64,000 nucleotides of DNA from Escherichia coli (GCF_017348835.2 NZ_CP072315.1); one strand, 5' to 3'. Counted from the first letter of the stretch, positions 13,388 to 57,993 are shown. The notes: a model not told the origin generated them from the letters alone. Numbers and translations: made by a program.

Positions 13388-13578
13388 GCTTTCCTTCGTG
13401 ATAATTACCTGCCTTTAAGGTCTTTTCACGGCTGAGATGCTTGCTCAGTTAAATAAATGTGCGGTACTACTGGCTATGGTCGGTTGTATGACATGGTTAT
13501 TCCATAAACTATTAAAACCCATAACGGGAGTATTACCGTTATGGTGATGCTCGTCGTTTTACATCGGAGAGCATTTTA

Positions 13579-14178: not shown

Positions 14179-15057
14179 ATGAAGTTAGCTACGGACCTGG
14201 TAAAAGCTATTTTGATTAGAAATGGCGTTGAACCAGTAAATATAAGCGAATCATCTAAGTTATCTTTGAAACAACCACTGACAGAACTTAAATTCAGTTT
14301 ATATTTGCGAACTGAGCATTTATCTCACTTCCTACCCGGTTATGTTTATTCTATAAAAGAATGTCCACTGTCATATGACATCGGGATCGAAATTCAGAAA
14401 ATCTTCGAAAGTTTACATTTGTTAAACGAAGAATTTGAATCCCTCGGTTTTGTTTCTGTATGGATAGAAATGCATCAAAGCATTTTTGAACAAAGTCGGT
14501 TTAAGAAAAGTAACTTTACTTTTCGGGAGGAAGAGGTCGAGCTTGCTAAAGGGCTTGTTTGTTCTCACAATTCACAAATAAGTAATGCGGCTTATTTCTG
14601 GCTTCAGCACTTTGAGGAGTTTATGATTTATGTTCGTAATAAGCTTATCGACCTCTTTCGAGAGGCCTATGACCTGATCCTTGGAATGCAGCAAGTATTT
14701 TTCATTCGGGAAAAGGAAGAGCTGTTGAAAACTATAAGTTATGGCGATGAGCTGTATGAGGTGAAATTCATGGCGGCTGAGCTTTACTCTATCGAACAGA
14801 ACTTAAAGTGTTCTGAATCGATAAGTACAAAATCTCAAGCTTCGGCATATATTAACCGCATCCGTGAGTTTGTGCGTTCGGGGTGGAGGCAGGGCTATAT
14901 AGTCTGCCATCATAAGCGAAGTAATCAAATTTCATCATTGTCATTACCGATGTACTTGAAAGATACGTCAGGCCGAAGTGCTCGAAAGCGAGTAAAACGT
15001 CTTATATCTTCTACAGTTTGTGGTAGAAATAAAGATTTAGGTCTTACAGATTTTTAA
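14179..15057 (+). CDS. Hypothetical protein, member 1 of a tandem array of ~300-aa genes
   Basis: 292 aa; same size class and N-terminal pattern as the next four genes; own RBS (ggaggctgtATG). Confidence 0.5.
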   Translation: MKLATDLVKAILIRNGVEPVNISESSKLSLKQPLTELKFSLYLRTEHLSHFLPGYVYSIKECPLSYDIGIEIQKIFESLHLLNEEFESLGFVSVWIEMHQSIFEQSRFKKSNFTFREEEVELAKGLVCSHNSQISNAAYFWLQHFEEFMIYVRNKLIDLFREAYDLILGMQQVFFIREKEELLKTISYGDELYEVKFMAAELYSIEQNLKCSESISTKSQASAYINRIREFVRSGWRQGYIVCHHKRSNQISSLSLPMYLKDTSGRSARKRVKRLISSTVCGRNKDLGLTDF

Positions 15058-15075
15058 TTAAATTATACCCATGTG

Positions 15076-15111
15076 GGGATCACACCCCATATGGGAGTGA
15101 TCCCTTTTTTT
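15076..15111 (+). terminator. Intrinsic terminator between array genes 1 and 2
   Basis: GGGATCAC-(13 nt)-GTGATCCC stem followed by a 7-T run, then GAGAGG RBS and ATG at 15128. Confidence 0.6.
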
Positions 15112-15127
15112 ATTGAGAGAGGATCAC

Positions 15128-16063
15128 ATGAAAATTATCGAAAAAATCATTAATGCCTTTTTGGTTGTTCAACATAAAAAAATACAGGTTAAAAACATTA
15201 CATTTTTAGACAATGGGCAGGGCATGTTCTCTGGTATGTCTTTTGATGCTGATGTTTCACTGGAGTTTATGTATGAATCAGCAAAAGCATATAGTTCTTG
15301 TTTCTGTGATATTCCCTTTCCAGGTTTTGAAGATGCAAATCTGGAGGAAATTACGAAATTTCAATTAGATGCTTTGAAGCAAAGAAAGAATCATTCTTTC
15401 TTTGTTAACCATTTGAGGTTTCCTATAGTTTTAAGGGAAGGGTGCAAAATCGAAAGAGGAGAAGTCTATTCAATTTCGAATTGCACTTATAATAAAGAAA
15501 GATTGCAGTATCTTTTTTCTCAGGATATTTACGGTAAGTTGTATAATTCCTTAGAGAAAGAATTAAGCTCGTTTTTCTCATTTATCAATGTTGAGGTGCA
15601 CGAGTTGTTAAAAGATGCTGTATGCTTTGCATTAAAAATCCTGAATAAGATATCTTTGGATACACCTGAAAGACTTATTAAAGCTTTTAATTATCGTGAC
15701 TGGTATTGTAGTTACGATGTTGAGCTTTTTAGGAAAGGCTTACCTGGTCATATTCTGGAAGAGCTCATTGCTCCAGATATCTTACTTTCAGACCTTAACG
15801 GTTGTAGAAAAATACTTAGAAATGCAAAACGAGTTCTAAATGGACATACACAAACCAATTGTGTTTATATTAAATATGAATGGTGGTTGGGGCCTGTTGA
15901 TACCTCACACTCAGCTAAGTTGATGTCTGACAAAGAAATTAATAACCGAAGTGACTTGAAGAATTTTTCAAAGGTCTTTTTCAAAGAGTGTTTAAGTTCT
16001 GGTAAGTCGGAATATGAAAACCATCTTAGTGAAAAAGAACATGCGCTTCGCTATAATTATTAA
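15128..16063 (+). CDS. Hypothetical protein, array member 2
   Basis: Track start 15113 is TTG; ATG at 15128 has a GAGAGG RBS. 311 aa. Confidence 0.5.
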   Translation: MKIIEKIINAFLVVQHKKIQVKNITFLDNGQGMFSGMSFDADVSLEFMYESAKAYSSCFCDIPFPGFEDANLEEITKFQLDALKQRKNHSFFVNHLRFPIVLREGCKIERGEVYSISNCTYNKERLQYLFSQDIYGKLYNSLEKELSSFFSFINVEVHELLKDAVCFALKILNKISLDTPERLIKAFNYRDWYCSYDVELFRKGLPGHILEELIAPDILLSDLNGCRKILRNAKRVLNGHTQTNCVYIKYEWWLGPVDTSHSAKLMSDKEINNRSDLKNFSKVFFKECLSSGKSEYENHLSEKEHALRYNY

Positions 16064-16084
16064 TTAAAATTATTTTCTCCCATA

Positions 16085-16111
16085 GGGATTTCTCCCTATG
16101 GGAGAAATCCC
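16085..16111 (+). other. Perfect 12-bp stem hairpin between array genes 2 and 3
   Basis: GGGATTTCTCCC-tat-GGGAGAAATCCC; no clear U-tract after it. Confidence 0.6.
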
Positions 16112-16131
16112 TCTATTAAGAGGGTATTGAA

Positions 16132-17052
16132 ATGAATGCTATACAAAAGTTAGTTGAATCTATTCTTGTTAAAATGGGTTTTGTTGGCGCTGTAGTGGAA
16201 AATATATATTTGGATTCAAAACCATTTCGGCATATTCGATTTGTGGCTGATATTCCAGTAATATCTTTTCTACCTCATTTGGTGAAATATCTTAAGGGTG
16301 CAGACCATCTTTACAGTGGTAACGATGATTTGCATCCTCTTTTCATTTATTTTTCCGAAGCGGCTACATTAAAAGCAGGTCCTGTAAATCTCGCGAACTT
16401 TCGTTTTGAAGTTTCTATAGCTTCAACTCATTTACGACTGGTCTCAGAGCAGCCTGATTTGCTTTTCAAAGGATTTAACCGGGATAATCTAGAATACGTT
16501 TATTACCGCTCAGATTTGGCCTCTAAGGATCTTATACTAGGCCTTGTTGAACACGGTTCTCCTTTCATAAAACATCTACATGGACTTATACAAAAGCGAA
16601 TTTTAAACGAGTTCTCTCTGATTTTTTCTGTTCTTGAAAAGATTTTAGAAAGCGCGAAGCCACAAATTCTTGCTTGCTTCCATAGTGTTGATTATGAAAT
16701 GAACGTAAAAATAATAGCCGAAGCTATACCTGAAACTGTATCTAATCAGATAGTCACATCTGATTATATAGTTAATTCTATATCAGATGCGGACAAGTTT
16801 ATAAATCATGTTCGTCGCTATTTAGCAGGCAGGGTAATGAAGAGGCGGATATACGCTGAATTAGATGTTTGTGAAGAAACATCAAGTATTTCACTAGTGA
16901 ACTTAGGATGCTTTACGTCTCCTCTGCTCGTTACGGAATATCAAATGTTTAAGCCACACTCTTCAGGGTTATATCGAAAAGCTATAAACAACTCCTTAAA
17001 ACAGTTCAAACCAGAAATGCATGTACCTTCTGAAGAACTCTTTTATAATTAA
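16132..17052 (+). CDS. Hypothetical protein, array member 3
   Basis: 306 aa ORF; RBS agagggtattgaaATG. Confidence 0.5.
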   Translation: MNAIQKLVESILVKMGFVGAVVENIYLDSKPFRHIRFVADIPVISFLPHLVKYLKGADHLYSGNDDLHPLFIYFSEAATLKAGPVNLANFRFEVSIASTHLRLVSEQPDLLFKGFNRDNLEYVYYRSDLASKDLILGLVEHGSPFIKHLHGLIQKRILNEFSLIFSVLEKILESAKPQILACFHSVDYEMNVKIIAEAIPETVSNQIVTSDYIVNSISDADKFINHVRRYLAGRVMKRRIYAELDVCEETSSISLVNLGCFTSPLLVTEYQMFKPHSSGLYRKAINNSLKQFKPEMHVPSEELFYN

Positions 17053-17062
17053 TCTAACCCAT

Positions 17063-17100
17063 CCGGGAACCTGCTTCCCGGTGGGAAGCACTTCCTTTTT
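17063..17100 (+). terminator. Double hairpin + U-tract between array genes 3 and 4
   Basis: CCGGGAA-cctgc-TTCCCGG followed by GGAAG-ca-CTTCC and TTTTT; then GAGGTAGTGTA RBS region and ATG at 17119. Confidence 0.55.
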
Positions 17101-17118
17101 AGTCATGAGGTAGTGTAA

Positions 17119-18057
17119 ATGTTTAAAGAATCTGACCACGTGGAATTTGTTAGTGCCTTTCTTTATCAAAATTTAGGCCTTAATGTTTCCGCTGACGATA
17201 TAACCGTTCAATTATCTGATACTTCGTTCGACAAAGTAACCTTTGATTACGATGTAGATATCGATAATTTAAATTGTATGTTGGATCTCTACATATCTGA
17301 GCTAATAAAGCACAACGCATCTTACTCCGATTCTATTCTTTTGAAACAAAAAATAATTTATTTTCTTGGAGTATTTAAGAATTTCGGATTTTTTACGTTT
17401 GATATTCGCGGATATAGTAATACTTTAAGCCCAGTTAAAGTTATTGATATTGTTTCAATGATTATTAATGACTGTGAAGAGTTATCTAAAGCTAATTCTT
17501 CTACTGATGCTATAAGAAATCTTTATCTCGATAAAATGAAGGTGGATGGGAAAGTGTTAGTTGCGAAATTTGCACTTAAACAGTTTTTTCATTCCGACTT
17601 TGGTGACTTTATCTCATTTGTCGAGAAAAGAATTACAGATTGTCTTAATGAAACTTTAAGGATTATCAAAGCTGTTGAACATGGCTTTGTACGTGTAGGG
17701 CAGCATAAGATTAATCGCCGTATTAATGATGACTTAAAGTTATGCATTGATTTCAATACTGATGATTATCCGGCAAATATGCCAGATATATATATTAAGT
17801 TTAACGATACATTTGATGGGAACGGGGCGTTATATTGTGACAATGATGCCCTCATATCCCTCTATACCGATGTTGCTTCAATTATCAATGTGCCGGTGAT
17901 GATGGAAGTAAGATTGATCAATAAAAGAGGGCGTGTTGTCTGTGATTCTTCGCATTCAACTTACGTATCTCTCGAAAGTAATGACCGATACAGAGTAACT
18001 GATCGCACATTACTAATAACTGAAGCTTTTGACGATTTTCGTAACGCGTCTCAATGA
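17119..18057 (+). CDS. Hypothetical protein, array member 4 (clear paralogue of member 5)
   Basis: Blocks shared with the next gene: KMKVDGKVLVAKFALKQFFHSDFGDFISFVEKRIT vs LMQVDGQVMIARFALQQFWDTHFIGLITFVSESIT, and HSTYVSLESNDRYRVTDR vs HTVYVSELTGGRIKIHDR. Confidence 0.6.
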   Translation: MFKESDHVEFVSAFLYQNLGLNVSADDITVQLSDTSFDKVTFDYDVDIDNLNCMLDLYISELIKHNASYSDSILLKQKIIYFLGVFKNFGFFTFDIRGYSNTLSPVKVIDIVSMIINDCEELSKANSSTDAIRNLYLDKMKVDGKVLVAKFALKQFFHSDFGDFISFVEKRITDCLNETLRIIKAVEHGFVRVGQHKINRRINDDLKLCIDFNTDDYPANMPDIYIKFNDTFDGNGALYCDNDALISLYTDVASIINVPVMMEVRLINKRGRVVCDSSHSTYVSLESNDRYRVTDRTLLITEAFDDFRNASQ

Positions 18058-18176
18058 TCCTTTTGCTTCAGTCCAAAAAAGTAACTTTGGTTGGCTGAAG
18101 ACACTTGTCTATGACAATGTAAAATCTGTCGCTGGCATCTTCTTTTAGCTTAACCAAATTTTTATCTAACCCAGTG

Positions 18177-18191
18177 GGGAAGTCGCTTCCC
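18177..18191 (+). other. Hairpin in 5' region of array gene 5 (copy of the gene-4 upstream element)
   Basis: GGGAAG-tcg-CTTCCC; followed by the same GAGGTAGTGTA-N-ATG leader seen upstream of gene 4. Confidence 0.5.
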
Positions 18192-18228
18192 TTCTGGGGC
18201 ACTTCCTCTCAAATTCGAGGTAGTGTAT

Positions 18229-19185
18229 ATGACACATTCATCTGATGATAAAAACTATGTCCGAGCAGTTCTGAGTTATCTTGGCATAGATTTTGATGAG
18301 GCGGATATAGTATTAAGTGTTTGCCATTGTCAAAGTGACGAGCTTTCTTTTACCTGTAATATCAAAGCTATTGAACTCAAGAATGTTGTTGATTTATATG
18401 TCGATAGTATCTCTGAGAATGAAATAGAAGCTTTAAACAGAGAATCTTTAAAATCGCGACTCTGTTACTTTCTTGAGGTGTTTGACGCAGTCTCTGGTCA
18501 GTACCTTGAAATTTCAGGAAAACACTTTGCAACTAGTCGTTTTGAATATGATGATGTTTGTAGTGAAGTTCTTAGCATGTCTAATGATGTTTCTCAGTCG
18601 AAAGGTTATGACCGGGATGAATATAACAGACTGATGCAGGTTGATGGTCAGGTTATGATTGCCCGTTTTGCTTTGCAACAGTTCTGGGATACTCATTTTA
18701 TTGGACTAATAACATTTGTATCTGAGTCTATAACATCGAGCCTCTATAAAGCTTATGAAACTTTTAGTGATATTAGTTTGGCTTGCTATAAACTGAGTGA
18801 ATATTCTTATTCACGCTCTATCAACAGTGAATTGACCCTTAATATTTCACTTAAAGAAAATGACTTCTGTGAGGACCTATCTGATTGCTATATGGAAGAT
18901 GAGGCTTTACCTTCTGGTAGGGTAATTTCTCGACGCAACAATGACTCCATAATAAGTATTTATGAGAGCTATGCTGCGGCTTCTTATATTCCGATGATTG
19001 CATCTTTGGAAGTCGTTGATGAATACGGCGAAGTGGTTACTGACCTCTGCCATACCGTTTATGTTTCAGAGTTAACCGGTGGGCGGATTAAAATCCACGA
19101 CCGTAATGACTTAGTATCTGAAGTTTTCGATAACCTAAGAAATTTAAATCTTGCAGTTGGAGATTCAGTTTCACAAGCTGCTTGA
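18229..19185 (+). CDS. Hypothetical protein, array member 5
   Basis: Track start 18223 is GTG; ATG at 18229 has a GAGGT RBS. Paralogue of 17119-18057. Confidence 0.6.
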   Translation: MTHSSDDKNYVRAVLSYLGIDFDEADIVLSVCHCQSDELSFTCNIKAIELKNVVDLYVDSISENEIEALNRESLKSRLCYFLEVFDAVSGQYLEISGKHFATSRFEYDDVCSEVLSMSNDVSQSKGYDRDEYNRLMQVDGQVMIARFALQQFWDTHFIGLITFVSESITSSLYKAYETFSDISLACYKLSEYSYSRSINSELTLNISLKENDFCEDLSDCYMEDEALPSGRVISRRNNDSIISIYESYAAASYIPMIASLEVVDEYGEVVTDLCHTVYVSELTGGRIKIHDRNDLVSEVFDNLRNLNLAVGDSVSQAA

Positions 19186-19224: not shown

Positions 19225-19249
19225 GGCACGGTTTCCGTGCCTTTTTTTT
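19225..19249 (+). terminator. Intrinsic terminator closing the paralogue array
   Basis: GGCACGG-ttt-CCGTGCC followed by an 8-T run. Confidence 0.7.
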
Positions 19250-19448
19250 GCCTCGCTTACAAGCGTCTACTCCTCTTCTACCTATCCCACCTTACATCAC
19301 CACTTAAAATCTATCTTTCTAATTCCATTATCCTTTTCGTAGCCTCTAATGCTCTGGTATGAACATACTCTTTAAACTCAAAAAAGTGCTATTAACGAAA
19401 AAAAATCCCTAAAGAGATTTGTATACTGTTCTCAACCAAGGAGAGCTC

Positions 19449-19724
19449 ATGAATGAACTAAAATCCAAAAACGAGAACAGTACCAAAAGCAACTTTCCCC
19501 CGGTTGATAATCAGTTTTGCTTTTACCATGTTGATTTCAGCATAGAACGACTACTTTCTACGGCCGAGGATCTCCAGCTTGAGTACATCTTCCAGAAACC
19601 TGGAAGTGAAGTAAGAAAGGATTTGGTTGAGCGATTCGAACGTGGAGAGCGCTTTGTTACAGCTTCACACTGTGACAATTTCTGTGAAATCCTTGGTTGT
19701 CAAGGCCATCAGGAAAATGCATAA
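19449..19724 (+). CDS. Hypothetical protein (first gene of an eight-gene operon)
   Basis: Track start 19419 is TTG; ATG at 19449 is preceded by AAGGAGAG. Confidence 0.45.
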   Translation: MNELKSKNENSTKSNFPPVDNQFCFYHVDFSIERLLSTAEDLQLEYIFQKPGSEVRKDLVERFERGERFVTASHCDNFCEILGCQGHQENA

Positions 19725-19768
19725 ACCCATAAACCTACATTTCCACTTTTAAGGATGTTCACTAAAGA

Positions 19769-20359
19769 ATGATTGGAGAAAGTATTTTTGACTGGGTAAT
19801 TTACGGAATATCCATTTTGATATTTGCCTCAGCACTAATTGAAGGAAAGACAACTCGCTACCCAGCACTTTTTTTCTATGGGAGTTTAATTTTAATGTTA
19901 ATCCTGATAGTTGCTGGAGGCCTTAACTGGTGGTTCTACAGGTCAAAATATGGCGCAGTAATCGTTATCTTCACAGTGGTTTCTTTACTGATGACTCGAT
20001 TCCGCCTGGTCATATATAAATTAAGATTAAGAAAGTTAGTTTCAGAGATCAGATTTCGTATAAAAACGGGTTTTCGTATAATTCTTGTTTTGTCGGATAA
20101 TGAGGATGAGCGTAATGTTCTGCTGTCTATGCTTAGCAACGTATTGCCAGAGCAAACGCTTATTCACACGCGTGATGCTCTCGGACCTCATTCAGGGCCT
20201 ATCCTAAAAGCTCTTGAGCTACATCATCAACAGGGAACAGGTTACATACTCGTCTGTGAACAACAAATCTCAGCGCGTACGTGGTTGAGTATCGTAGAAA
20301 ATGGGAAACCTGATACATCTATAGCTGTTAATTTTCATTCGATCCCAGAAATGGAGTGA
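19769..20359 (+). CDS. Membrane protein (three N-terminal TM helices + cytoplasmic domain)
   Basis: Hydrophobic segments WVIYGISILIFASALI, LFFYGSLILMLILIVAGGL, AVIVIFTVVSLLM; tightly spaced after the previous gene. Confidence 0.5.
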   Translation: MIGESIFDWVIYGISILIFASALIEGKTTRYPALFFYGSLILMLILIVAGGLNWWFYRSKYGAVIVIFTVVSLLMTRFRLVIYKLRLRKLVSEIRFRIKTGFRIILVLSDNEDERNVLLSMLSNVLPEQTLIHTRDALGPHSGPILKALELHHQQGTGYILVCEQQISARTWLSIVENGKPDTSIAVNFHSIPEME

Positions 20360-20366
20360 TTTTTCA

Positions 20367-20624
20367 ATGAGTAGAACCGTTTCACAAAGTGTCACAGAAG
20401 ATTGTCTTTTTGATACCCGCACACAAGTCAGATTACAACTAAGTCGAAGCGTTCATAAAACGCTGGCATCTGCTAAAGAAATTTTACAGGGAAGGGGGGT
20501 TGATTCGGTCTCTATTGAAGATCTTGTGCGAGCCTGTCTTGAAGAGAACCAGCCAATTGATCTCGCCTCACTTTACCTTGAAAATCTCTTAAAACAGAAA
20601 GGTACCAGCATTTGCGATTTTTAG
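20367..20624 (+). CDS. Hypothetical small protein (85 aa), possibly DNA-binding
   Basis: 8-nt gap from upstream gene; weak ribbon-helix-helix-like impression only. Confidence 0.4.
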   Translation: MSRTVSQSVTEDCLFDTRTQVRLQLSRSVHKTLASAKEILQGRGVDSVSIEDLVRACLEENQPIDLASLYLENLLKQKGTSICDF

Positions 20625-20697
20625 TGTTTTCAAACCTATTAGATAAAATGCCGGTTGTGTTTATATAACATCAATAATTTCATGCAACAGGTAAAAC

Positions 20698-21234
20698 ATG
20701 AGTACTCAAAAGCAACTTTCCAGAACAACCGGCACTGAACGTATGTTTAAGGAAGAGCTGGCGTTATCCTTAATTTGTTGGGTTTTCACCAGTCCATTTA
20801 CCAACTGGACCGATAAAGTCTTCAGTGGTATTGAAGTTCCGTCTGAAGGACCGTCAACATTACTGGGTGAGGCTGAAAAATTCTTTCGTTTTGTCGTTAA
20901 TGAAGAAGGCTACGACGCAGGAAGGGCTGCTCTTGGTCTTGACCTATGTTGTTTTTCACTTCCGTCGTGTTTGTTCCCGGACGCTGCCCTGTCTGAGGAA
21001 GAGGTTATGAGTAAGTTAACCGGAGAAGTTATCCATGGGATTCTTCTTTCCTTACCTGAATTTATTGATATGCCAGAAGTGCTCGCTTACCAGGTCAGGG
21101 ATGAAATTCTTGCTTTTAACACTCGCTGTGGAGACGGGATCTTTCATGGTTGGAACACGGCTTCAGAATTGTGGAAGTTTGAAATCTTTCCCCGCACCAC
21201 CATCATGATGCAGCATACTTCGGCAATACATTAA
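20698..21234 (+). CDS. Hypothetical protein (178 aa)
   Basis: ORF in the same operon; no motif recognised. Confidence 0.45.
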   Translation: MSTQKQLSRTTGTERMFKEELALSLICWVFTSPFTNWTDKVFSGIEVPSEGPSTLLGEAEKFFRFVVNEEGYDAGRAALGLDLCCFSLPSCLFPDAALSEEEVMSKLTGEVIHGILLSLPEFIDMPEVLAYQVRDEILAFNTRCGDGIFHGWNTASELWKFEIFPRTTIMMQHTSAIH

Positions 21235-21250
21235 AATTAGGCGGGGCAGA

Positions 21251-21697
21251 ATGCATAAAAAACTTTTTCTTCTCGAATGGAAACCCTGTCAGAGCCGCGT
21301 ATGGGCCGGTTGGATGGCCCTGTGGTTGACTATCAGTTTTCTGATGTTATCTGCCTTGCTTATGACAGATCATCTCCTGAACAAAGTCATCCTGCCGCCA
21401 ACATGGTTGTTGATCTGGTTTTCGCCAATGCTGGGGTTTTTGATAAAAGTTCGCGTCGTCGAAACTCAACATTTCCTGGAGCATGACCTCTGTGTTGCAG
21501 GTTTCTCTTTTTACCGCTGGAAGAGGTTAGTTTCTCCCGGGCTTTGGTCAGTTGACTGTATAAATGGTCGTTTTCGCCTCAATCGGATCACCCAGGTGGG
21601 TAAGACTATCCACTATCCATGGCGTCTCCATTATCATCCTTTGTTCATGAGCCCTATCGAACATAAATCGCATGCTGTGAAAGCTGTTTCAAAATGA
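21251..21697 (+). CDS. Hypothetical membrane protein (148 aa)
   Basis: Hydrophobic segments (WMALWLTISFLMLSALLM; LPPTWLLIWFSPMLGFLI). Confidence 0.45.
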   Translation: MHKKLFLLEWKPCQSRVWAGWMALWLTISFLMLSALLMTDHLLNKVILPPTWLLIWFSPMLGFLIKVRVVETQHFLEHDLCVAGFSFYRWKRLVSPGLWSVDCINGRFRLNRITQVGKTIHYPWRLHYHPLFMSPIEHKSHAVKAVSK

Positions 21698-21769
21698 CTT
21701 CTTTAGAGGTTTACATGACATTTATGTTCTGCAAGGTCAGCCAGGGCAGCAAAATTGATTTGAAATAAC

Positions 21770-22750
21770 ATGAGCCTGGAGAAACGTATGAGTTATGACG
21801 ATTTGCCCTATTTTCGTGACCAGATTCTGGAACGTATCGACTCGCTTAAGTGTTTTCTTTCGAACACCCCCCCGCTGATGGCAAACCTGATGACTGTCTC
21901 CACCGTATCTCGAACAGAAGAGCGACTGAAGCAGGTTAAACCCATCAGGGTTAGTGTTAAAGACGATGCTTCGGTTGAGGAAATTATTCAGGCACTTACT
22001 GACATCTGTGTGGATGACATAGAGTCATTAAGTCATGATTCCACCAAAGTGACCACTAAATACCCGGGTCTTATCATTGTCCCAGAAAGAGCAGATCTTC
22101 TCGAAAGCTTGATCACATCTATAAATGAAGCAAAAAATGATTTTGCTGCGGCAATGAGGCGTATCGATAATAAAAAGAATGTCCGTTTTGATAAAGTGCA
22201 CAAGAAGCTCCCGGGCCTTGTCGCTATGCACTCAACAAGAAATGTCCTTTTCATCAAGTCCCAGCTTAAAAAAGTTACTTTTTCATGGCGGCTAAACCGA
22301 AACCAGGAAGTTAAAACAGCAGAGCAACTTGTGAGTTTGTTGGAGCGCAGGAGAGCCTCAGAAGTAAAAAATGTAGCAACTACCAATTTGAATGTCGTGT
22401 CTAATATCGATAAGGCTTTACACCGTCTTGAATTTCACCCACTGAAGCAGGGCGAATCTTATCGCCTTTGTCGAACTAACTCTTTCCCTGTTCCGATTGC
22501 TCACATTTTTGCATTTAGGCCTGAAGGGCAGGAACGAAACGGGAATAAATATGCTGAGACTGATTATTCAGTAGTAAAAGCATCCTTGCCCATTTTCGCA
22601 GCAGGCAACATACCTCAATTAAAAACGCTCTCTGACTGGGCTCCTGAAAACAGCCAGGGCCCGTCCAACCAACGGAAGCTGAGCCTGAAATATACAGAAC
22701 TCGTGCCGGGGGCTGAGCTGGGCATTTTCATTGTCAGCCCCGAAAATTAA
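21770..22750 (+). CDS. Tus-like protein (replication terminus-binding family), tentative
   Basis: VHKKLPGLVAMHSTRNVLF...VTFSWRLNRNQEVKTAEQLVSLLERR resembles my recollection of E. coli Tus [52 protein letters not shown]; similar length. Not verified by alignment. Confidence 0.45.
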   Translation: MSLEKRMSYDDLPYFRDQILERIDSLKCFLSNTPPLMANLMTVSTVSRTEERLKQVKPIRVSVKDDASVEEIIQALTDICVDDIESLSHDSTKVTTKYPGLIIVPERADLLESLITSINEAKNDFAAAMRRIDNKKNVRFDKVHKKLPGLVAMHSTRNVLFIKSQLKKVTFSWRLNRNQEVKTAEQLVSLLERRRASEVKNVATTNLNVVSNIDKALHRLEFHPLKQGESYRLCRTNSFPVPIAHIFAFRPEGQERNGNKYAETDYSVVKASLPIFAAGNIPQLKTLSDWAPENSQGPSNQRKLSLKYTELVPGAELGIFIVSPEN

Positions 22751-22759
22751 GGAACAACA

Positions 22760-23665
22760 ATGCAATGGATTTCCACAGCCAGCCAGAAAATCGATGAGCG
22801 TCTCTATCGTGTCTGCGTCTGGGTAAAAAAATATCACGCTGATGCGATTAACCGCGTTGTGCTTACCGTTGATCTAAGTAAAGCCCGACATGACCCTGAC
22901 GAGGACCAGGTAAGAGCAGAGCTGCTGTGCGGCCATTATTTTTTGCTTCGTAAGGAAAACGCTTCGAACTCTGCGCCTGACGATCAAAAGTTTGCTTTCC
23001 TGCCTGACGGGCGCAATCTGTGTTGGCAGACCGCAACCCCGGTGCTTCAGCATCTCCTGCTCAATAAAAACGTTCCTGAGTCGCTGAGGTTGCTTACGGA
23101 CTACATACATATGCGTCTGGCCAGGCTGACAATGGTACCAATGTCCGGAACCATCATGAACGAGGCTCTGCTGGACAGCATCAGCTGGGTTAAGGTGGAT
23201 TTGACCTACTTCTGGCAGTACGAACAGCTCAGCTCTCATCTGGGACCCATCCAGATAACCCACAAGGCACTAGTACGCTTCGGGCATCTGGCAAAGAATG
23301 ATGAAAACTCCAGTGCCATAAGAATCCTGCGTCAGCGTCTGTCTTCAGAATTCTTACAAGAATTTCAGATGGCTGAGGATGAGCTAAAGCGCAAACAGTC
23401 GTTGATGGGCACCATGGACGTGAAAATGCTGTTTCATGCTCATTACCCCAGCCAGAAGATGCTGGTGGCTCGATATAAAAATGGTTGGGTAATGGTGGAT
23501 TGTTTTCTGTTTCATCATACCAAACCTAAGAAAAAAGCAAAAAACAAAACTACTGTGGCTAAGCCTCAACTTAAAGAGACTAAAAGAGAAGGGAGTGAAA
23601 ATGGAACTGGGCATTATGGTGTGCATCGTGTTGTTACTCTCCGTGGCGGCGGCGTGGATCAGTAA
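22760..23665 (+). CDS. Hypothetical protein (301 aa)
   Basis: ORF 10 nt after the previous stop; no motif recognised. Confidence 0.45.
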   Translation: MQWISTASQKIDERLYRVCVWVKKYHADAINRVVLTVDLSKARHDPDEDQVRAELLCGHYFLLRKENASNSAPDDQKFAFLPDGRNLCWQTATPVLQHLLLNKNVPESLRLLTDYIHMRLARLTMVPMSGTIMNEALLDSISWVKVDLTYFWQYEQLSSHLGPIQITHKALVRFGHLAKNDENSSAIRILRQRLSSEFLQEFQMAEDELKRKQSLMGTMDVKMLFHAHYPSQKMLVARYKNGWVMVDCFLFHHTKPKKKAKNKTTVAKPQLKETKREGSENGTGHYGVHRVVTLRGGGVDQ

Positions 23666-23945
23666 TAAGACAGTTGATTTGCTCGAAAGATTCTATTTCA
23701 AGCGTCCGCTGAGCATGGAGTACGCGGCATGGCTACGTGTAATGTGTGCAGGCTTGTTATTGGTTTTTATTCAGGTTGCTCCACAATTTACACTTCTGTA
23801 TACCCTTAAACTTGTCACGCTTATTAATCTTGGAATCCAGACAATGAAATTAAATGGCGTGTACAAATATAAAAGAACGGGAATTTTGCCTCCGGGAGGG
23901 GCACTCTCTAATCTCACCAGACTTAACCCGTTCAAGAAAAAATAA
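23601..23945 (+). CDS. Small membrane protein (114 aa)
   Basis: ATG at 23601 with AAGGGAG RBS; overlaps the previous gene by 65 nt in another frame; two hydrophobic helices. Confidence 0.45.
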   Translation: MELGIMVCIVLLLSVAAAWISNKTVDLLERFYFKRPLSMEYAAWLRVMCAGLLLVFIQVAPQFTLLYTLKLVTLINLGIQTMKLNGVYKYKRTGILPPGGALSNLTRLNPFKKK

Positions 23946-23951
23946 AGTTAT

Positions 23952-23967
23952 GCGCCCGTGAGGGCGC
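23952..23967. terminator. Bidirectional hairpin between convergent genes
   Basis: GCGCCC-gtga-GGGCGC between the 23945 stop (+) and the 23967 stop (-). Confidence 0.5.
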
Positions 23968-25151
23968 TATTCATCAAAGGCATTTCGCATAAGCTTGATC
24001 ATTGCTTTTTTACCAGCTTCAATATTACGAATGTAGCGCATAACCATTTCTTCATTCGACCAGTTCCCCATTTCCATAATCTGTGGTAGCGAGTAACCTT
24101 CAATATTTAGCTGTATCGCTCCGCCTACACGAACGCTGTGCCCTGTCCAGTAACGAGTTTTAGTCTCATTTGGATAAAGCTCATTCCACATCTCTTTAAA
24201 TGCTCGTAAAAGGGAATTTTTGCTGAGCATACCGGCATCGTCCACAGTGTCTTCTTCATCTTCATCGTTCAGAAGACTTTGCTTAGCACGATAGGGTAGG
24301 TTATGCCTTTTAAGAAGTTCAGATAGCTCATTCCCCTTACTCCGAAGCTTCCAGCCGGGTGGCATATAGCCTGTATCATGGAAATTTACGGCCTGGAAAA
24401 GGAATTCATCCGGATGACTGTGCTGATCCATTTTCACGAGGTTCATCAATCTCAAGAGGCAGTTAGTTAACTGACGTGTCAGCCGGTAGGTAAGAAGTGT
24501 ACTAATGTTCGTTTTTGTACGGTATACCGTCAGGTTAAATTCACCGGTCATACTATCCAGAGACAGATCTTTCAGACGTATACGTCGAATTTCGGATGAA
24601 CGGAGCAGTGTTTCAAAGCCTGTCCAGATCAGGCACAGGTCACGAAGTTTACGAACTGAGTTTGTAGTACTGCGTAACTTTATCAGAGCCTTGAGATCGC
24701 CAATAAGAAAGGGAGTTGCCTGTTTAGTCGTCTTTCGCTTCCGGGCTTCCGATTGTTTTAAGGCTTCCAGCATGTACCATGCTTCAGACGTAATAATCCC
24801 GGGCAGGTTAAGCCCTTTTTTATGGATACTATTTAAGGCCTGAAGACAGCTGTTTATGCTGCTTCGTGACAATTTGCCTTCAAGATGCCCCATAAACGCA
24901 AGCAGAGCGTCCTCAGACACGGGGAGCGAACTTACTGGCCAGTCTGTATGCAACCGGGCATTCGCCAGATACCATTCGTTCCATACTCGTAGCCAGTGCA
25001 GATAGGTTTTAGCAGTGTTGTATCTCAGATGGGAAAAGTAACGGATCAAGCGTGAAAGCTGTTTATCATGGTTGCCGAACGTTTCCAGCTGCTGATGCAA
25101 TTCGCTTTCCGAAAACTGTCTGATCACTGATTGATTCTTCATCCTGCTCAC
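23967..25151 (-). CDS. Tyrosine site-specific recombinase (phage-integrase family)
   Basis: C-terminal catalytic signature HSVRVGGA (H-x-x-R) and the Tyr in MVMRYIRN; upstream Arg in LRSSEIRRIRLKDL. Confidence 0.8.
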   Translation of the reverse strand: MSRMKNQSVIRQFSESELHQQLETFGNHDKQLSRLIRYFSHLRYNTAKTYLHWLRVWNEWYLANARLHTDWPVSSLPVSEDALLAFMGHLEGKLSRSSINSCLQALNSIHKKGLNLPGIITSEAWYMLEALKQSEARKRKTTKQATPFLIGDLKALIKLRSTTNSVRKLRDLCLIWTGFETLLRSSEIRRIRLKDLSLDSMTGEFNLTVYRTKTNISTLLTYRLTRQLTNCLLRLMNLVKMDQHSHPDEFLFQAVNFHDTGYMPPGWKLRSKGNELSELLKRHNLPYRAKQSLLNDEDEEDTVDDAGMLSKNSLLRAFKEMWNELYPNETKTRYWTGHSVRVGGAIQLNIEGYSLPQIMEMGNWSNEEMVMRYIRNIEAGKKAMIKLMRNAFDE

Positions 25152-49436: not shown

Positions 49437-49689
49437 TTGCATGTCCTCATCCCTCAAGCCCCCTGCCAGGCCCCAACGTGCTGTCAGGCTTCGCCTGATT
49501 CCCGATCTGCGCCGATACTTCAGCCGATAACTTTTTGTTTTCTTTTTATTTTCTTCCCATTTCCTCAAAAATCGCGGGCGGCGTGGACAGGGCACCATTG
49601 CCGCATGTGGGGTCTTAATAAGGGCAGGGTGGTCAGTTTTGCTCGATGCCATGGGTAGGCCCTCCCCTTCATGGGATGAGGACATGCAA
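49437..49689. repeat. Element bounded by perfect 17-bp terminal inverted repeats (MITE-like or large stem-loop)
   Basis: TTGCATGTCCTCATCCC at 49437-49453 and its exact reverse complement at 49673-49689, ~220 bp apart, with no convincing ORF inside. Confidence 0.5.
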
Positions 49690-55330: not shown

Positions 55331-55960
55331 TGAAGCCTCGTCTCAGCGATAACGCTTGAAATAGCCCGCTTTGGTCATCATGAAATTAGCCATCTGACTG
55401 GCGATTTGATTGTATCTTACTCATAGTGCCCTACCTATAGGTTAAAAAGGGGCATTTTCGCTTTATAGCGTGTTCAGCAGCATCAATCCTCCCAAGAAAG
55501 GCTGGCTTATTAAGCCGGTCCATCATTTTCTGTATATCTCTCATCAATTTTTATATCCGCCCTGGAGTGCACCGTTCAAGCACACCGATTAGGCAGATAG
55601 TCACTAGTTAACTCTTTACTAGTGACTAAATTCCATTGATATACGTGACAACGTCACGTCATGAAAGCTTATAAATGCCTATTTTTCATACAATGGGATT
55701 TAATTAGGAGTAAATCCCATAGGCTTACATAAGGATGACAATTAAAAGCGTTAAATATCAACCAGATAGAATGATTACCCCCAATTAATGGGCTCATCAC
55801 ATTATTTCACTGGCTGGGGTTATTGCTGGCATATCTGAAAGTGCTAATATGTTAGTCATTAGTAATTAGTAAAGCCTTTACTAAACGCGTTTCTACGTAA
55901 ATTCTATAGGTTTTATAGTGTCCTACCTTTGCTCAAATCAAAATGTTCTGACATACCAAA

Positions 55961-56791
55961 ATGGAGTGTAAAATGACTCAAAACCAGGGTTCTGAGCCAG
56001 TACCGGCGAGCCGGACAGGGCAGCTCATCAGCGCCCGGGATATGGCCATGCAGAAATTCGAAGAAGGGATGCGGTTAATCTCGGAAGCGTCGGAACTGTG
56101 CGGTCTCTCTCTCTTCACCAGCAGAATTATGCAGCCCAACGCATTTGGTCTTCCGTCGTCACTGGATCGCACCATCGAGGAGGGGCGTAAGGAAATTGAC
56201 CGTAAAACGTGGAAAAGGCTCTTTGAAGAAACAGGTATGGACCGGTACTGGAACCATAAGCAAAAAGAAGCCTTTAACGAATCCCTTCGTACGGATCCGC
56301 CCGTCGCTTCCCTGGAGATTGTTAAGGGAACATTACAGCATGCACTGGCTAACAGACGAGACACCCTTGCAGAAGGTTTCGTTGATGTTCTCAACAAGCT
56401 TGACCGAAGTTTCAAAAGCAATGCCAGGCAATATACAATGCCAAAAAAGCTTGTTCTTCGGGGGATTTTTCCTGGTGTGAACGTGCTGAGGTACAACGGT
56501 TTCTCGCAGGACAATCACTTTTGTTTACGCGACTTTGAGAATATTGTATGCATCTGTTCTGATACTCCAACACCTGCAACCGGCGGTGGGCTGAGTATGG
56601 TCGACAGGCTGACGGCCATGAGAAATACAGAATTCACAGGCGAGGTCAGTGATGAGAATGGCTGGCGGTGTCGCCTGTTTGAGAATGGAAACGTTCATAT
56701 TTGCATCGACAGTATCTCGCTTCTGAATGCTCTGAACGATCTTATCAGCATATATTTTGCAAACCAGCTTCCGGCCGCAGGAAAAAAATGA
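55961..56791 (+). CDS. Hypothetical protein (276 aa)
   Basis: ORF whose stop overlaps the start of the next gene (ATGA); no motif recognised. Confidence 0.5.
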   Translation: MECKMTQNQGSEPVPASRTGQLISARDMAMQKFEEGMRLISEASELCGLSLFTSRIMQPNAFGLPSSLDRTIEEGRKEIDRKTWKRLFEETGMDRYWNHKQKEAFNESLRTDPPVASLEIVKGTLQHALANRRDTLAEGFVDVLNKLDRSFKSNARQYTMPKKLVLRGIFPGVNVLRYNGFSQDNHFCLRDFENIVCICSDTPTPATGGGLSMVDRLTAMRNTEFTGEVSDENGWRCRLFENGNVHICIDSISLLNALNDLISIYFANQLPAAGKK

Positions 56792-57993
56792 TGATTGAAA
56801 ATGATAAAGAAAAAAGCCTGAACGATGCTACCCCGCCAGAGGTGCAGAATGACATCCGCAGCGAATCCACTGAAAAATCAAAGGAAATGGGTCGTTCAAG
56901 GTACTCATCTATCGCGATGATCGATTACTTCAATGCAATCGAACGTCTGTGCAAAGAGAAAGAAATTAACCCGGAAAATATCGATCTGAGCTTCAAAGTT
57001 CACTGGCTCAGAAACGCTGTTGGCGGCTCGTTTGCAAGGTCACAGGAGATGTTCGCGGAGTACCAGAAGTATGTTAAAGAGGTTCCTGAAGAGGCCCGTT
57101 ACCTGGATATACCCGATGAGGTAAAGGTTGCACTCGGCGATATTATCTCGTACATCACCTGGCACTACCGTAGAAGCTATACCGCAATACAGAATGATAG
57201 TGTTAAAAAAGCTGAAGCACGTAGCATGCAGCTGGAGGAGGAGGTAACGCAGCTGTTACAGCGGCTTGAGCAAAGCGCTACCGATATGGATGAGCTGAAA
57301 CTTGAGAATCAGGCACTACAGGGTCGATTAGAGATCCGGGACAGTACCGTCAAGGAGTTAGAAACAAGGCTGAATGTTGCCGAAGCAGAACTCGAAACCT
57401 GCCATCACCAGTTAGATAGCACACGGCATGAATTGAGCCTCGCACAGCAGTCAAATGACTCACTCTCCCAGCAACTGGCTGAACGTAAAACAGAGATCGC
57501 TGGTCACCTTGAATATCAAAAAAAGCTGAACGAAGAGATCAACACGCAGCGTTCTGATAACGCCGGTCTTTCCAGACAATGCGACCAGTTAAGTCAGACT
57601 GTGTCAGATACAAAGGCAGAGAGGGACAGGTTTGAACAGGAATTGATTGCTGCACAGAACCTTTGTACTGAGCTGAAAAGTGCACTGTCCGGGAAAGAGG
57701 GTGACCTGGTGGCGGTGAATGCCGAGCTTACTGAACTCCATAAACTAAACGAGTCGCTGAGCGCCGACCTGAATAAAGTAACTTTGGTCAGCCAGGGCTA
57801 TGAAGCGGAAGTGGCTGAACAAAGCAATGAACTCAAAACGCTCCAGGCCAAAGTAATGAAGCTGGAAGCTACCCTGGAGGCGGAGAAAACAATCTCAGAA
57901 TCCCTAAAAGGCACCATTGATACATTAACTGGTGCAATGGCAGGGGGAGGTACTGGAAAGTCAAAACAGCCGCGTAGCAGAAAAACATCATGA
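56788..57993 (+). CDS. Coiled-coil protein, KfrA-like (tentative)
   Basis: N-terminal globular region followed by ~250 aa of heptad-like Q/E/L-rich sequence and a basic tail (GKSKQPRSRKTS); resemblance to KfrA is architectural only. Confidence 0.4.
   Translation: MMIENDKEKSLNDATPPEVQNDIRSESTEKSKEMGRSRYSSIAMIDYFNAIERLCKEKEINPENIDLSFKVHWLRNAVGGSFARSQEMFAEYQKYVKEVPEEARYLDIPDEVKVALGDIISYITWHYRRSYTAIQNDSVKKAEARSMQLEEEVTQLLQRLEQSATDMDELKLENQALQGRLEIRDSTVKELETRLNVAEAELETCHHQLDSTRHELSLAQQSNDSLSQQLAERKTEIAGHLEYQKKLNEEINTQRSDNAGLSRQCDQLSQTVSDTKAERDRFEQELIAAQNLCTELKSALSGKEGDLVAVNAELTELHKLNESLSADLNKVTLVSQGYEAEVAEQSNELKTLQAKVMKLEATLEAEKTISESLKGTIDTLTGAMAGGGTGKSKQPRSRKTS

What the first reader, a model, noticed from the sequence alone, without database searches (positions are those of the whole stretch)
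19419..23945. Tightly packed eight-gene operon with membrane components and a Tus-like protein
Eight co-directional genes with gaps of 8-70 nt or overlaps sit between a strong terminator (19225-19249) and a bidirectional hairpin (23952-23967). Three products are predicted membrane proteins. The 326-aa product shows a block I recognise from E. coli Tus (VH+HLPGL...F(G/S)W). A terminus-binding homologue inside an operon with membrane proteins, convergent on a tyrosine recombinase, is unusual and could relate to replication-fork control or plasmid maintenance.
Basis: partly seen in the sequence, partly recalled or inferred. Interest (0 to 1): 0.6.

Follow-up and report, generated by a model that had tools for sequence, protein, structure and literature searches.

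The report
IncHI plasmid Tus-homologue operon
The eight-gene cluster is real and its 326-aa product is a true but very divergent relative of the E. coli replication-terminator protein Tus. It is a conserved, already annotated backbone module of IncHI resistance plasmids rather than an oddity, and its DNA target is still unknown.

Summary
The window is IncHI2 (R478-type) plasmid backbone; 19300-24000 is ≥99% identical in about 1,100 sequenced plasmids.

**Observation:** confirmed. Eight co-directional ORFs, a terminator, a hairpin, and three products with transmembrane-like segments are all present.

**Tus homology:** confirmed.
- Pfam Ter (PF05472) matches at E=6.5e-19.
- A confident AlphaFold model (pLDDT 92.8) matches only Tus-Ter crystal structures over its full length (TM 0.72-0.79).
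- Residues aligned to the E. coli cytosine "lock" pocket (F140, H144, G149), E49 and R232 are conserved.

**How unusual it is:** not unusual.
- RefSeq already names the protein.
- 2,769 plasmid records encode a homologue.
- Published work notes tus on IncHI2 plasmids and plasmid-borne tus in general.
- The whole block, plus a convergent Cre-like recombinase and (in most lineages) hha, keeps its order down to about 25% Tus identity.

**Ter site:** no E. coli-type Ter site is in the window. R478 has one Ter-like core elsewhere that lacks the essential G6. R27 has none.

**Most likely function (inferred):** a plasmid-encoded polar fork barrier with a non-canonical Ter.

**By-product:** a 13-bp palindrome, AAAAGTNACTTTT, occurs about 50 times per IncHI plasmid (under 1 expected). 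One copy inside tus is held at synonymous sites.

The parts
19225..19249 (+). Intrinsic terminator closing the upstream paralogue array and isolating the operon
   Evidence: 7-bp GC-rich stem plus T8. Conserved in IncHI1. More distant lineages also have a terminator at this place.
19410..19430 (+). Conserved promoter-like element AGAGATTTGTATACTGTT (-10 = TATACT) just upstream of the first gene's ribosome-binding site
   Evidence: 18/19 nt are identical between IncHI2 and IncHI1 inside otherwise unalignable DNA. Distant lineages carry TATAAT-like boxes at the same place after a terminator. The promoter function is inferred.
19449..19724 (+). Gene 1: 91-aa acidic protein, no family
   Evidence: ORF and ribosome-binding site. 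RefSeq WP_001004201.1. No NCBIfam or PADLOC match and only a weak PHROG of unknown function.
19769..20359 (+). Gene 2: 196-aa protein with 3 N-terminal hydrophobic segments and a ~100-aa soluble C-terminal part
   Evidence: Hydropathy. Conserved in all lineages at ~191-197 aa. No family match.
20367..20624 (+). Gene 3: 85-aa acidic protein, no family
   Evidence: Pfam gives only TetR_N at E=0.16, which is not significant. A ribbon-helix-helix look by eye was not confirmed.
20698..21234 (+). Gene 4: 178-aa acidic protein, no family
21251..21697 (+). Gene 5: 148-aa basic protein with 2 hydrophobic segments
   Evidence: Hydropathy. No Pfam hit on record.
21770..22750 (+). Tus-family protein, 326 aa (320 aa from the RefSeq start at 21788)
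   Evidence: Pfam PF05472 at E=6.5e-19. AlphaFold model pLDDT 92.8, pTM 0.88. Foldseek hits only Tus-Ter structures, TM 0.72-0.79. Lock-pocket residues conserved. RefSeq WP_000119427.1.
22270..22282 (.). Copy of the dispersed IncHI palindrome AAAAGTTACTTTT embedded in tus (codons K-V-T-F)
   Evidence: The same codons AAA GTT ACT TT(T/C) are kept in four lineages down to 37% protein identity. The copy sits in a 46-nt island of 93.5% HI1/HI2 identity inside a region that is 56% identical overall.
22760..23665 (+). Gene 7: 301-aa basic protein, translationally coupled to tus (9-nt gap), with an N-terminal RNase H-like fold
23601..23945 (+). Gene 8: 114-aa basic membrane protein, overlapping gene 7 by 65 nt
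   Evidence: Hydropathy. RefSeq WP_001805195.1. The overlap arises from a C-terminal extension of gene 7 that is absent in distant lineages.
23952..23967 (.). Shared hairpin terminator GCGCCC-GTGA-GGGCGC between the operon and the convergent recombinase
   Evidence: Sequence. Stem conserved with a different loop in IncHI1. The T-run is good only on the minus strand.
23967..25151 (-). Convergent Cre-like tyrosine recombinase (394 aa); probable plasmid multimer resolvase (inferred)
   Evidence: phmmer against PDB: Cre recombinase at E=2e-23. PHROG integrase at E=5e-21. Conserved position in every lineage examined.

Best explanation
**What it is.** The cluster is one conserved transcription unit (terminator, promoter, eight genes, terminator) of the IncHI plasmid backbone. 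Its sixth gene encodes a true but highly divergent member of the Tus family.

**Most likely mechanism.** The protein binds a plasmid-specific, non-E. coli-type Ter sequence as a monomer. It then acts as a polar barrier to the replicative helicase, using the same flipped-cytosine lock as E. coli Tus.

**Likely consequence for the plasmid.** The barrier would fix where, or in which direction, replication of this ~200-270 kb low-copy plasmid ends.
- The unit sits at the distal end of a ~58-kb array of genes. That array runs co-directionally from the RepHIA replicon through the Tra2 transfer genes.
- Just past the unit lies a convergent Cre-like recombinase that probably resolves plasmid multimers.
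- The layout therefore resembles the chromosomal pairing of a fork trap with a dimer-resolution site.

**Shown versus inferred.**
- Shown: homology, fold, conserved pocket residues, synteny and operon boundaries.
- Inferred: DNA binding, fork arrest, the identity of Ter, and any role of the seven partner proteins (three membrane proteins and one with an RNase H-like fold).
For: **Family membership**
- Pfam Ter matches at E=6.5e-19 over residues 20-217.
- BLASTP to E. coli Tus aligns VHKKLPGL/FSW with [8 protein letters not shown]/FGW.
- The AlphaFold model (pLDDT 92.8, pTM 0.88) matches only Tus-Ter crystal structures, over all 326 columns, with TM 0.72-0.79.

**Mechanism-relevant residues** (45-sequence alignment)
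- E49 aligns to E51, I79 to V81, K89 to K93, and R232 to R235.
- R139, F140, H144, P148 and G149 are identical.
- The assignment of these residues to the cytosine-6 pocket and fork arrest is from established knowledge of E. coli Tus.

**A functional unit**
- The gene order is the same in IncHI1.
- It is also the same in lineages with 46%, 37%, 28%, 27% and 25% Tus identity.
- Each lineage examined has a promoter-like box before gene 1; a preceding terminator is seen in HI2, HI1, L016 and L018.

**Position on the plasmid**
- In R478, 47 of 52 genes from RepHIA (position 1) to the end of the unit (57.8 kb) are on the + strand. The recombinase and the tellurite-resistance genes that follow are on the minus strand. 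R27 shows the mirror image.
- In three other lineages a replication-initiator gene lies 3.6-7.6 kb beyond the unit (R27 repE; L016 Rep3_N; Klebsiella RepB-family).
- This echoes Pseudoalteromonas, where tus sits next to the origin (PMC6549158).

**Recombinase:** most similar to Cre, E=2e-23.
Against: **No cognate Ter has been found.**
- The window has no E. coli-type Ter.
- The best site in R478 (188,981, TAAGTTGTAACTAAT) scores within the range of shuffled sequence. It has T instead of the invariant G at position 6.
- R27 has no equivalent site.
- No asymmetric element is conserved within 17 kb of tus across four lineages.

**Divergence from chromosomal Tus.**
- NCBIfam equivalog models for Tus are far below cut-off: 53 vs 323 bits and 21 vs 178 bits. 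The protein is therefore not an equivalog of chromosomal Tus.
- R198, a base-contacting residue in E. coli Tus, aligns to V199.

**Position.** tus is not antipodal to the RepHI origins: it is 56 kb from the origin on the 275-kb R478.

**Skew.** Cumulative GC skew follows gene orientation and does not define a terminus.

**Experiments.** No experimental study of an IncHI Tus was found in the searchable literature.
Confidence: 0.55

Rival explanations
1. The Tus-like protein keeps the fold but no longer arrests forks. It acts instead as a site-specific DNA-binding regulator or roadblock, for example autoregulating its own operon as E. coli Tus does at TerB. Alternatively it is a plasmid chromatin-like factor that binds the dispersed AAAAGTNACTTTT palindrome.
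For: - The palindrome occurs 54 times in R478, 46 times in R27 and 11 times in the window, against under 1 expected.
- It is enriched in every IncHI-type lineage examined but one.
- One copy lies inside tus with synonymous positions conserved in four lineages.
- It contains GTAAC/GTTAC, part of the Ter core.
- No canonical Ter was found.
Against: - The motif is a symmetric palindrome with equally conserved halves. That points to a dimeric binder, whereas Tus binds an asymmetric site as a monomer (established knowledge).
- The motif is identical in plasmids whose Tus proteins share only 25-28% identity.
- Locus L021 keeps tus and the synteny but has no copy in 21 kb.
- The in-tus copy lies at a different place in the Klebsiella and L020 lineages.
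- The conserved lock-pocket residues would not be needed for a simple regulator.
Confidence: 0.12
2. The barrier acts during conjugation or rolling-circle-type DNA synthesis rather than vegetative replication. It would stop a transfer-associated helicase, or run-on synthesis, at a defined point next to the Tra2 region.
For: - The unit directly follows the Tra2 block and the trhI helicase, toprim, VWA and AAA genes.
- IncHI2 carries an E. coli-like Ter core in the Tra1 intergenic region, about 2 kb from the oriT/mobI side. It is conserved in 960 IncHI2 plasmids.
- PMC5923156 lists oriT, a potential ter site and tus together.
Against: - The Tra1 Ter-like site lacks G6 and is absent from R27.
- Nothing ties expression of the operon to transfer.
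- Adjacency to the tra genes is a feature of the whole backbone, not of this unit alone.
Confidence: 0.1
3. The eight genes are simply neighbouring backbone genes of unrelated function that share a transcript. Tus works alone, and the membrane proteins and gene 7 have nothing to do with replication.
For: - None of the seven partners has any family assignment.
- Extra genes are inserted within the block in some lineages: a 91-aa gene in IncHI1 and a 204-217-aa gene before tus in distant lineages.
- E. coli Tus needs no partner (established knowledge).
Against: - The order and approximate sizes of the partners persist down to about 25% Tus identity.
- Gene 7 is coupled to tus by a 9-nt gap or an overlap in every lineage.
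- Gene 7 is better conserved than Tus itself: 78% vs 59-65%, and 61-62% vs 46%.
- Gene 7 has a nucleic-acid-enzyme-type fold.
Confidence: 0.2

Closest known systems
E. coli Tus-Ter replication fork trap (Pfam PF05472; PDB 1ECR, 2EWJ, 4XR0-3)
   Same: - Same two-domain fold over the full length (TM 0.72-0.79).
- Same VH.xLPGL...F.W block.
- Conserved E49, K89, R139, F140, H144, P148, G149 and R232 equivalents.
   Different: - Only 16-18% identical, and far below the NCBIfam equivalog cut-offs.
- Plasmid-borne and the sixth gene of an eight-gene operon, rather than a single gene with TerB just upstream of its start (TerB seen 11 nt upstream of E. coli tus in locus L002).
- No GTTGTAAC-type Ter next to it or in the window.
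Plasmid-borne ('mobile') tus genes described by Galli et al. 2019 (PMC6549158), and the tus noted on IncHI2 plasmid pSTM6-275 (PMC5923156)
   Same: This is that gene. IncHI2 plasmids are reported to carry tus and a potential ter site. Plasmid-borne PF05472 genes are reported as frequent in gamma-proteobacteria.
   Different: Those papers give no operon context, structure, residue analysis or Ter identification for the IncHI protein. Here the conserved eight-gene context and the lack of a canonical Ter are documented.
Ter sites of plasmids R6K and R1/R100, which use the host Tus
   Same: A plasmid uses a Tus-type barrier to control the direction or end point of its own replication. In several IncHI-type lineages tus lies a few kb from a replication-initiator gene.
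   Different: R6K and R1 carry only Ter sites of E. coli type and borrow host Tus (established knowledge). IncHI plasmids carry their own divergent Tus. With one doubtful exception in IncHI2, they have no E. coli-type Ter.
Phage P1 Cre/lox plasmid-dimer resolution
   Same: The convergent recombinase is most similar to Cre (E=2e-23). It lies in a plasmid-maintenance neighbourhood.
   Different: No lox-like inverted-repeat site was found beside it. Its function was not tested.

Membership tests
Tus / Ter-binding protein family (Pfam PF05472) | Significant match to the family profile | tested here: met
   PF05472 at E=6.5e-19, residues 20-217 against model positions 10-208 of 296. All close homologues carry PF05472.
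Tus / Ter-binding protein family (Pfam PF05472) | Tus two-domain fold with an inter-domain beta-sheet cleft | tested here: met
   The AlphaFold model (pLDDT 92.8) hits only Tus-Ter structures, at E about 1e-19 and TM 0.72-0.79, over 324-327 aligned columns.
Tus / Ter-binding protein family (Pfam PF05472) | Cytosine-6 lock-pocket residues (I79, F140, H144, G149) and E49 | tested here: met
   V81, F140, H144, G149 and E51 in alignment A1. The roles of these residues are from established knowledge of E. coli Tus, not tested here.
Chromosomal Tus equivalog (NCBIfam TIGR02648 / NF002810) | Score above the curated equivalog cut-off | tested here: not met
   53.1 bits against a cut-off of 323, and 20.9 against 178.3. 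It is a distant family member, not an equivalog.
Tus-Ter fork trap (system level) | Cognate Ter sites with a GTTGTAAC core and G/C at position 6 on the same replicon | tested here: not met
   - Window: one core hit against 1.5 expected, and no consensus match.
- R478: one core with T at position 6, with a PWM score within the shuffle range.
- R27: none.
- A divergent Ter cannot be excluded.
Tus-Ter fork trap (system level) | Polar arrest of the replisome at the bound site | not testable with these tools
   Needs 2-D gels, marker-frequency analysis or in vitro helicase assays.
Operon (single transcription unit) | Shared promoter and terminator, short gaps, conserved order | tested here: inconclusive
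   Terminator, promoter-like box, short gaps and a terminal hairpin are present and conserved. Co-transcription itself was not measured. A conserved 73-nt gap before gene 4 could hold an internal promoter.
RNase H-like superfamily (gene 7) | RNase H-like fold plus a catalytic acidic (DEDD-type) set | tested here: inconclusive

The most novel reading that the evidence does not exclude
IncHI plasmids carry a self-contained, ancient termination or fork-control module. In it a divergent Tus works with co-evolving partners: an RNase H-fold protein translationally coupled to it, and three small membrane proteins. It acts on a non-canonical DNA target. The 13-bp palindrome AAAAGTNACTTTT, present about 50 times per plasmid and embedded in tus itself under synonymous-site constraint, would be the binding site of this module or of one of its products. 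That would amount to a plasmid-wide DNA-organising or replication-pacing system not described before.
Probability: 0.1. Interest if true: 0.75.

Novelty: already known. Interest (0 to 1): 0.3.

Why it matters
IncHI1 and IncHI2 plasmids are major carriers of multidrug, colistin (mcr) and heavy-metal resistance in Salmonella, E. coli, Enterobacter and Klebsiella.

Their Tus homologue belongs to the plasmid-borne tus genes from which Galli et al. proposed the chromosomal tus was domesticated. Knowing its Ter site and partners would therefore inform the evolution of the bacterial fork trap. It would also inform how very large low-copy plasmids finish replication and stay monomeric.

As it stands, the finding confirms an existing annotation. 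The added value is threefold:
- a negative result for canonical Ter sites;
- the deep conservation of the eight-gene context;
- the unexplained dispersed palindrome.

Tried and rejected
1. **E. coli-type Ter scan.**
   - The window has one GTTGTAAC hit against 1.5 expected, and no match to the 16-nt consensus at up to 3 mismatches.
   - A position weight matrix built from the ten E. coli Ter sites was run on whole R478 and R27. Those site sequences were recalled from memory; only TerB was verified, in locus L002. The best scores, 17.7 and 17.5, lie inside the shuffle range of 16.7±2.1, against 21.7-29.7 for real Ter sites.
   - The R478 site at 188,981 has a 15-nt identity to TerJ and is conserved in IncHI2. 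It lacks G6 and has no R27 counterpart, so it was kept only as a weak lead.

2. **Conserved asymmetric element near tus.** A search across four lineages with 12- and 14-mers at up to 1 mismatch found no Ter candidate. It returned only:
   - coding-sequence matches;
   - the palindrome;
   - an upstream leader element at 13526-13552.

3. **Isolated short R478/R27 matches**. These were Rep iterons, partition repeats, a par operator, terminators, palindrome copies and an inverted-repeat element. None looked like a Ter site.

4. **GC skew** follows gene orientation and does not locate a terminus.

5. **Family searches for the seven partner proteins** in NCBIfam, PHROGs, PADLOC and Pfam found nothing. 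My impression by eye that gene 3 is ribbon-helix-helix was not supported.

6. **lox-like inverted repeats** next to the recombinase: none found.

7. **Possible replacement motif in locus L021.** TCAGNCTGA occurs 5 times against 0.25 expected. It is also frequent in the window (8 copies), probably through CAG/CTG codon usage, so this idea was rejected.

8. **Literature.** The R27 genome paper could not be retrieved. The R478 record under accession BX664015 was not in the collection, so NC_005211.1 was used instead.

Full report
**Source of the window**

The stretch 19300-24000 is 100% identical to hundreds of large conjugative plasmids of E. coli, Salmonella, Enterobacter and Klebsiella. In total 1,121 plasmid records match at ≥99% identity, and 275 of 5,426 complete E. 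coli genomes hold a place covering at least 80% of the stretch. These plasmids are typed IncHI2A.

In the reference plasmid R478 (NC_005211.1) the 326-aa gene lies at 55,875-56,855. Around the operon, window coordinates therefore equal R478 coordinates minus 34,105; further downstream the window stops being collinear with R478.

**Check of the observation**

All eight ORFs exist on the + strand.
- Gaps between them are 44, 7, 73, 16, 72 and 9 nt, followed by a 65-nt overlap.
- The first gene most likely starts at the ATG at 19449, behind an AAGGAG ribosome-binding site. This is the RefSeq start.
- The terminator at 19225-19249 (7-bp stem, six G-C pairs, T8) is real.
- The hairpin GCGCCC-GTGA-GGGCGC at 23952-23967 is real.
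- Both structures are conserved in IncHI1.
- The hairpin has a good T-run only on the minus strand, so it is first of all the recombinase terminator.
- Three products (196, 148 and 114 aa) have 2-3 hydrophobic 19-residue segments each.

**Is the 326-aa protein a Tus?**

Yes, but a distant one.

Direct sequence comparison with E. coli Tus is weak:
- phmmer against PDB gives E=0.084.
- BLASTP gives 26% identity over 88 residues.

Profile and structure evidence is decisive:
- Pfam Ter (PF05472) matches at E=6.5e-19.
- An exhaustive search of 1.84 billion representative proteins found only 63 clusters at E ≤ 0.001. This fits the narrow Tus family.
- An AlphaFold model built on a 45-sequence alignment is confident, with pLDDT 92.8 and pTM 0.88.
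- Against the PDB the model matches only the four Tus-Ter entries, over the whole length (E about 1e-19, TM 0.72-0.79). The next hit has E=0.38.

In the alignment, the residues that form the cytosine-6 lock pocket in E. coli Tus are conserved. F140, H144 and G149 are identical, and I79 becomes V. E49, K89, R139, P148 and R232 are also conserved, whereas R198 aligns to V. The functional roles of these residues come from the published E. coli work, not from any test here.

The protein scores far below the NCBIfam equivalog cut-offs for chromosomal Tus. It is therefore a family member but not an equivalog.

**Is it unusual?**

No.
- RefSeq already names it 'DNA replication terminus site-binding protein'.
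- tblastn finds homologues in 2,769 of 72,556 plasmid records. They fall into three groups: IncHI2 at ≥99% identity, IncHI1 at 59%, and Klebsiella IncHI1B/FIB plasmids at 25%.
- A description of the IncHI2 plasmid pSTM6-275 mentions a tus gene and a potential ter site (PMC5923156).
- Galli et al. report that PF05472 genes are frequently plasmid-borne. They propose that chromosomal tus was domesticated from a plasmid gene (PMC6549158).

**Context**

The block is syntenic across the IncHI superfamily. The shared order, with some elements missing in individual lineages, is:
1. DUF3150, VWA, a 72-aa gene, and a toprim-domain gene.
2. Tandem ~300-aa paralogous genes, two to five depending on lineage (absent from the Klebsiella plasmid).
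3. Five or six small genes.
4. tus.
5. A ~265-300-aa gene, then a ~110-aa membrane-protein gene.
6. A tyrosine recombinase on the opposite strand, then hha (absent in L020), then a CoiA_N-domain gene.

This order was seen in:
- IncHI1 pHCM1 and R27;
- lineages with 46% and 37% Tus identity;
- lineages with 28% and 27% Tus identity;
- a Klebsiella plasmid with 25% Tus identity.

Variation is limited:
- IncHI1 has one extra 91-aa gene before tus.
- The distant lineages have an extra 204-217-aa gene before tus, overlapping its start in two of them.

Each lineage has a -10-like box in front of gene 1, preceded in HI2, HI1, L016 and L018 by a terminator. The box is TATACT in HI2, HI1 and L015, and TATAAT-like elsewhere. 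This supports a discrete transcription unit.

None of the seven partners has a family assignment.

Gene 7 stands out among the partners:
- It is coupled to tus by 9 nt.
- It is better conserved than Tus itself.
- No canonical catalytic acidic set is evident in the alignment.

The convergent recombinase is Cre-like (E=2e-23).

**Position on the plasmid**

In R478 the RepHIA initiator gene is at 1-876 and RepHI2 is at 260,265-261,353.
- From RepHIA to the end of the unit, 47 of 52 genes are on the + strand.
- Directly after the unit, the recombinase and the tellurite-resistance genes run the other way.
- R27 is the mirror image.

The unit therefore marks the end of a ~58-kb array that a fork leaving RepHIA would traverse co-directionally with transcription.

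In R27, in L016 and in the Klebsiella plasmid, a replication-initiator gene lies 3.6-7.6 kb beyond the unit.

Cumulative GC skew follows gene orientation and does not by itself define a terminus.

**Ter sites**

The window has one GTTGTAAC hit at 41972, against 1.5 expected by chance. It has no match to AGNATGTTGTAACTAA at up to 3 mismatches.

I built a position weight matrix from the ten E. coli Ter sites. The sequences were recalled from memory. Only TerB was verified, upstream of tus in MG1655.

Whole-plasmid results were as follows.
- **R478.** The best hit is 188,981(+), GATATTTAAGTTGTAACTAATAT, with a score of 17.7. Shuffled sequence gives 16.7±2.1, and genuine Ter sites score 21.7-29.7.
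- **That R478 site.** It shares 15 nt with TerJ but has T where all Ter sites have G6. It lies in an intergenic region of Tra1. It is conserved in 960 IncHI2 plasmids. This may be the 'potential ter site' of PMC5923156.
- **R27.** There is nothing comparable.
- **Neighbourhood of tus.** Across four lineages no asymmetric element is conserved within 17 kb of tus.

The cognate site, if there is one, is not of E. coli type. It remains unidentified.

**By-product: a dispersed palindrome**

The k-mer comparison of R478 and R27 exposed the palindrome AAAGTNACTTT. Its extended consensus is (G)AAAAGTNACTTTT(C), with random flanks.

| Sequence | Copies | Expected from dinucleotide shuffles |
|---|---|---|
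| R478 | 54 | 0.6 |
| R27 | 46 | 0.1 |
| Window | 11 | 0.0 |

(All.)

- It is absent from the accessory resistance regions of R478.
- The Klebsiella IncHI1B backbone has 12 copies in 28 kb.
- L020 has 5 copies, while L021 has none.

One copy lies inside tus at the codons K-V-T-F. GTT and ACT are kept in four lineages down to 37% protein identity. It sits in a 46-nt island of 93.5% HI1/HI2 identity, in a region that is 56% identical overall.

Two points argue against Tus as the binder:
- The symmetry of the motif suggests a dimeric binder.
- The motif is identical in plasmids whose Tus proteins share only 25-28% identity.

The link can be neither made nor excluded here. No paper in the searchable library mentions the motif in this context.

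**Verdict**

- The homology is confirmed and strengthened by structure.
- The 'unusual' reading is not supported, because this is a known, annotated and widespread IncHI backbone gene in its standard context.
- The most likely function is a plasmid-encoded polar fork barrier with a non-canonical Ter, placed at the end of the co-directional Tra2 array beside a Cre-like multimer resolvase. This is inferred, at confidence about 0.55.
- Open items are the identity of Ter, the roles of the conserved partners, and the dispersed palindrome.

Noticed in passing
Window, starts of the AAGTNACTT core: 3638, 4317, 10763, 14508, 15949, 18079, 22272, 25717, 40186, 44778, 57776, 61500. Also whole R478 (L004-L009) and R27 (L010-L013).: The palindrome AAAGTNACTTT (extended (G)AAAAGTNACTTTT(C)) is massively over-represented on IncHI backbones: 54 copies in R478, 46 in R27 and 11 in the window, against under 1 expected. 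It occurs in both coding and intergenic DNA, is absent from accessory regions, and some copies are positionally conserved. It is also enriched in Klebsiella IncHI1B-type plasmids. The binder is unknown, and no paper in the searchable library describes it in this context.
   Followed up: partly
Window 49437-49689: A ~250-bp GC-rich imperfect long palindrome is bounded by perfect 17-nt inverted repeats GGGATGAGGACATGCAA. The same pair is present in R478 (88,245 / 88,481) and R27 (152,165 / 152,400). The predicted fold has z=-4.2, and there is no Rfam family. It could be a single-strand promoter or initiation element, or a MITE-like element.
   Followed up: partly
Window 14179-19185: Five tandem paralogous genes of ~290-320 aa lie directly upstream of the operon. 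They have no Pfam domain. Between two and five copies are conserved in every IncHI-type lineage examined, except that they are missing from the Klebsiella IncHI1B plasmid.
   Followed up: no
Window 13526-13577: The non-coding element GGGAGTATTACCGTTATGGTGATGCTC upstream of the 173-aa gene is conserved at 14-mer level across four lineages. Its ATGCTC segment is complementary to GAGCAT in the ribosome-binding-site region (GGAGAGCAT), which suggests a translational control hairpin.
   Followed up: no
R478 188,981-189,003 (L007 38981-39003); outside the window: An E. coli-type Ter-like sequence GATATTTAAGTTGTAACTAATAT lies in a Tra1 intergenic region of IncHI2 plasmids. It shares 15 nt with TerJ but has T at the invariant G6. 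It is conserved in 960 IncHI2 records and absent from R27.
   Followed up: partly
Window 23601-23665: Genes 7 and 8 overlap by 65 nt. The overlap comes from a C-terminal tail of gene 7 (…GHYGVHRVVTL..GGGVDQ) that is present in the IncHI1/HI2 and closer lineages but absent from the ~265-aa versions in distant plasmids.
   Followed up: no
Window 20625-20697: The 73-nt gap between genes 3 and 4 contains two blocks, TGTTTTC.AACCTATT and TGTGTTTATATA, that are conserved between IncHI1 and IncHI2. It may be an internal promoter or a protein-binding site.
   Followed up: no
Loci L013 (R27 156,848-157,603), L016 14645-15727, L018 28547-29431: In three IncHI-type lineages a replication-initiator gene (RepE/FIA, Rep3_N, RepB-family) lies 3.6-7.6 kb beyond the tus-recombinase-hha block. 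R478 and the window have none there.
   Followed up: partly
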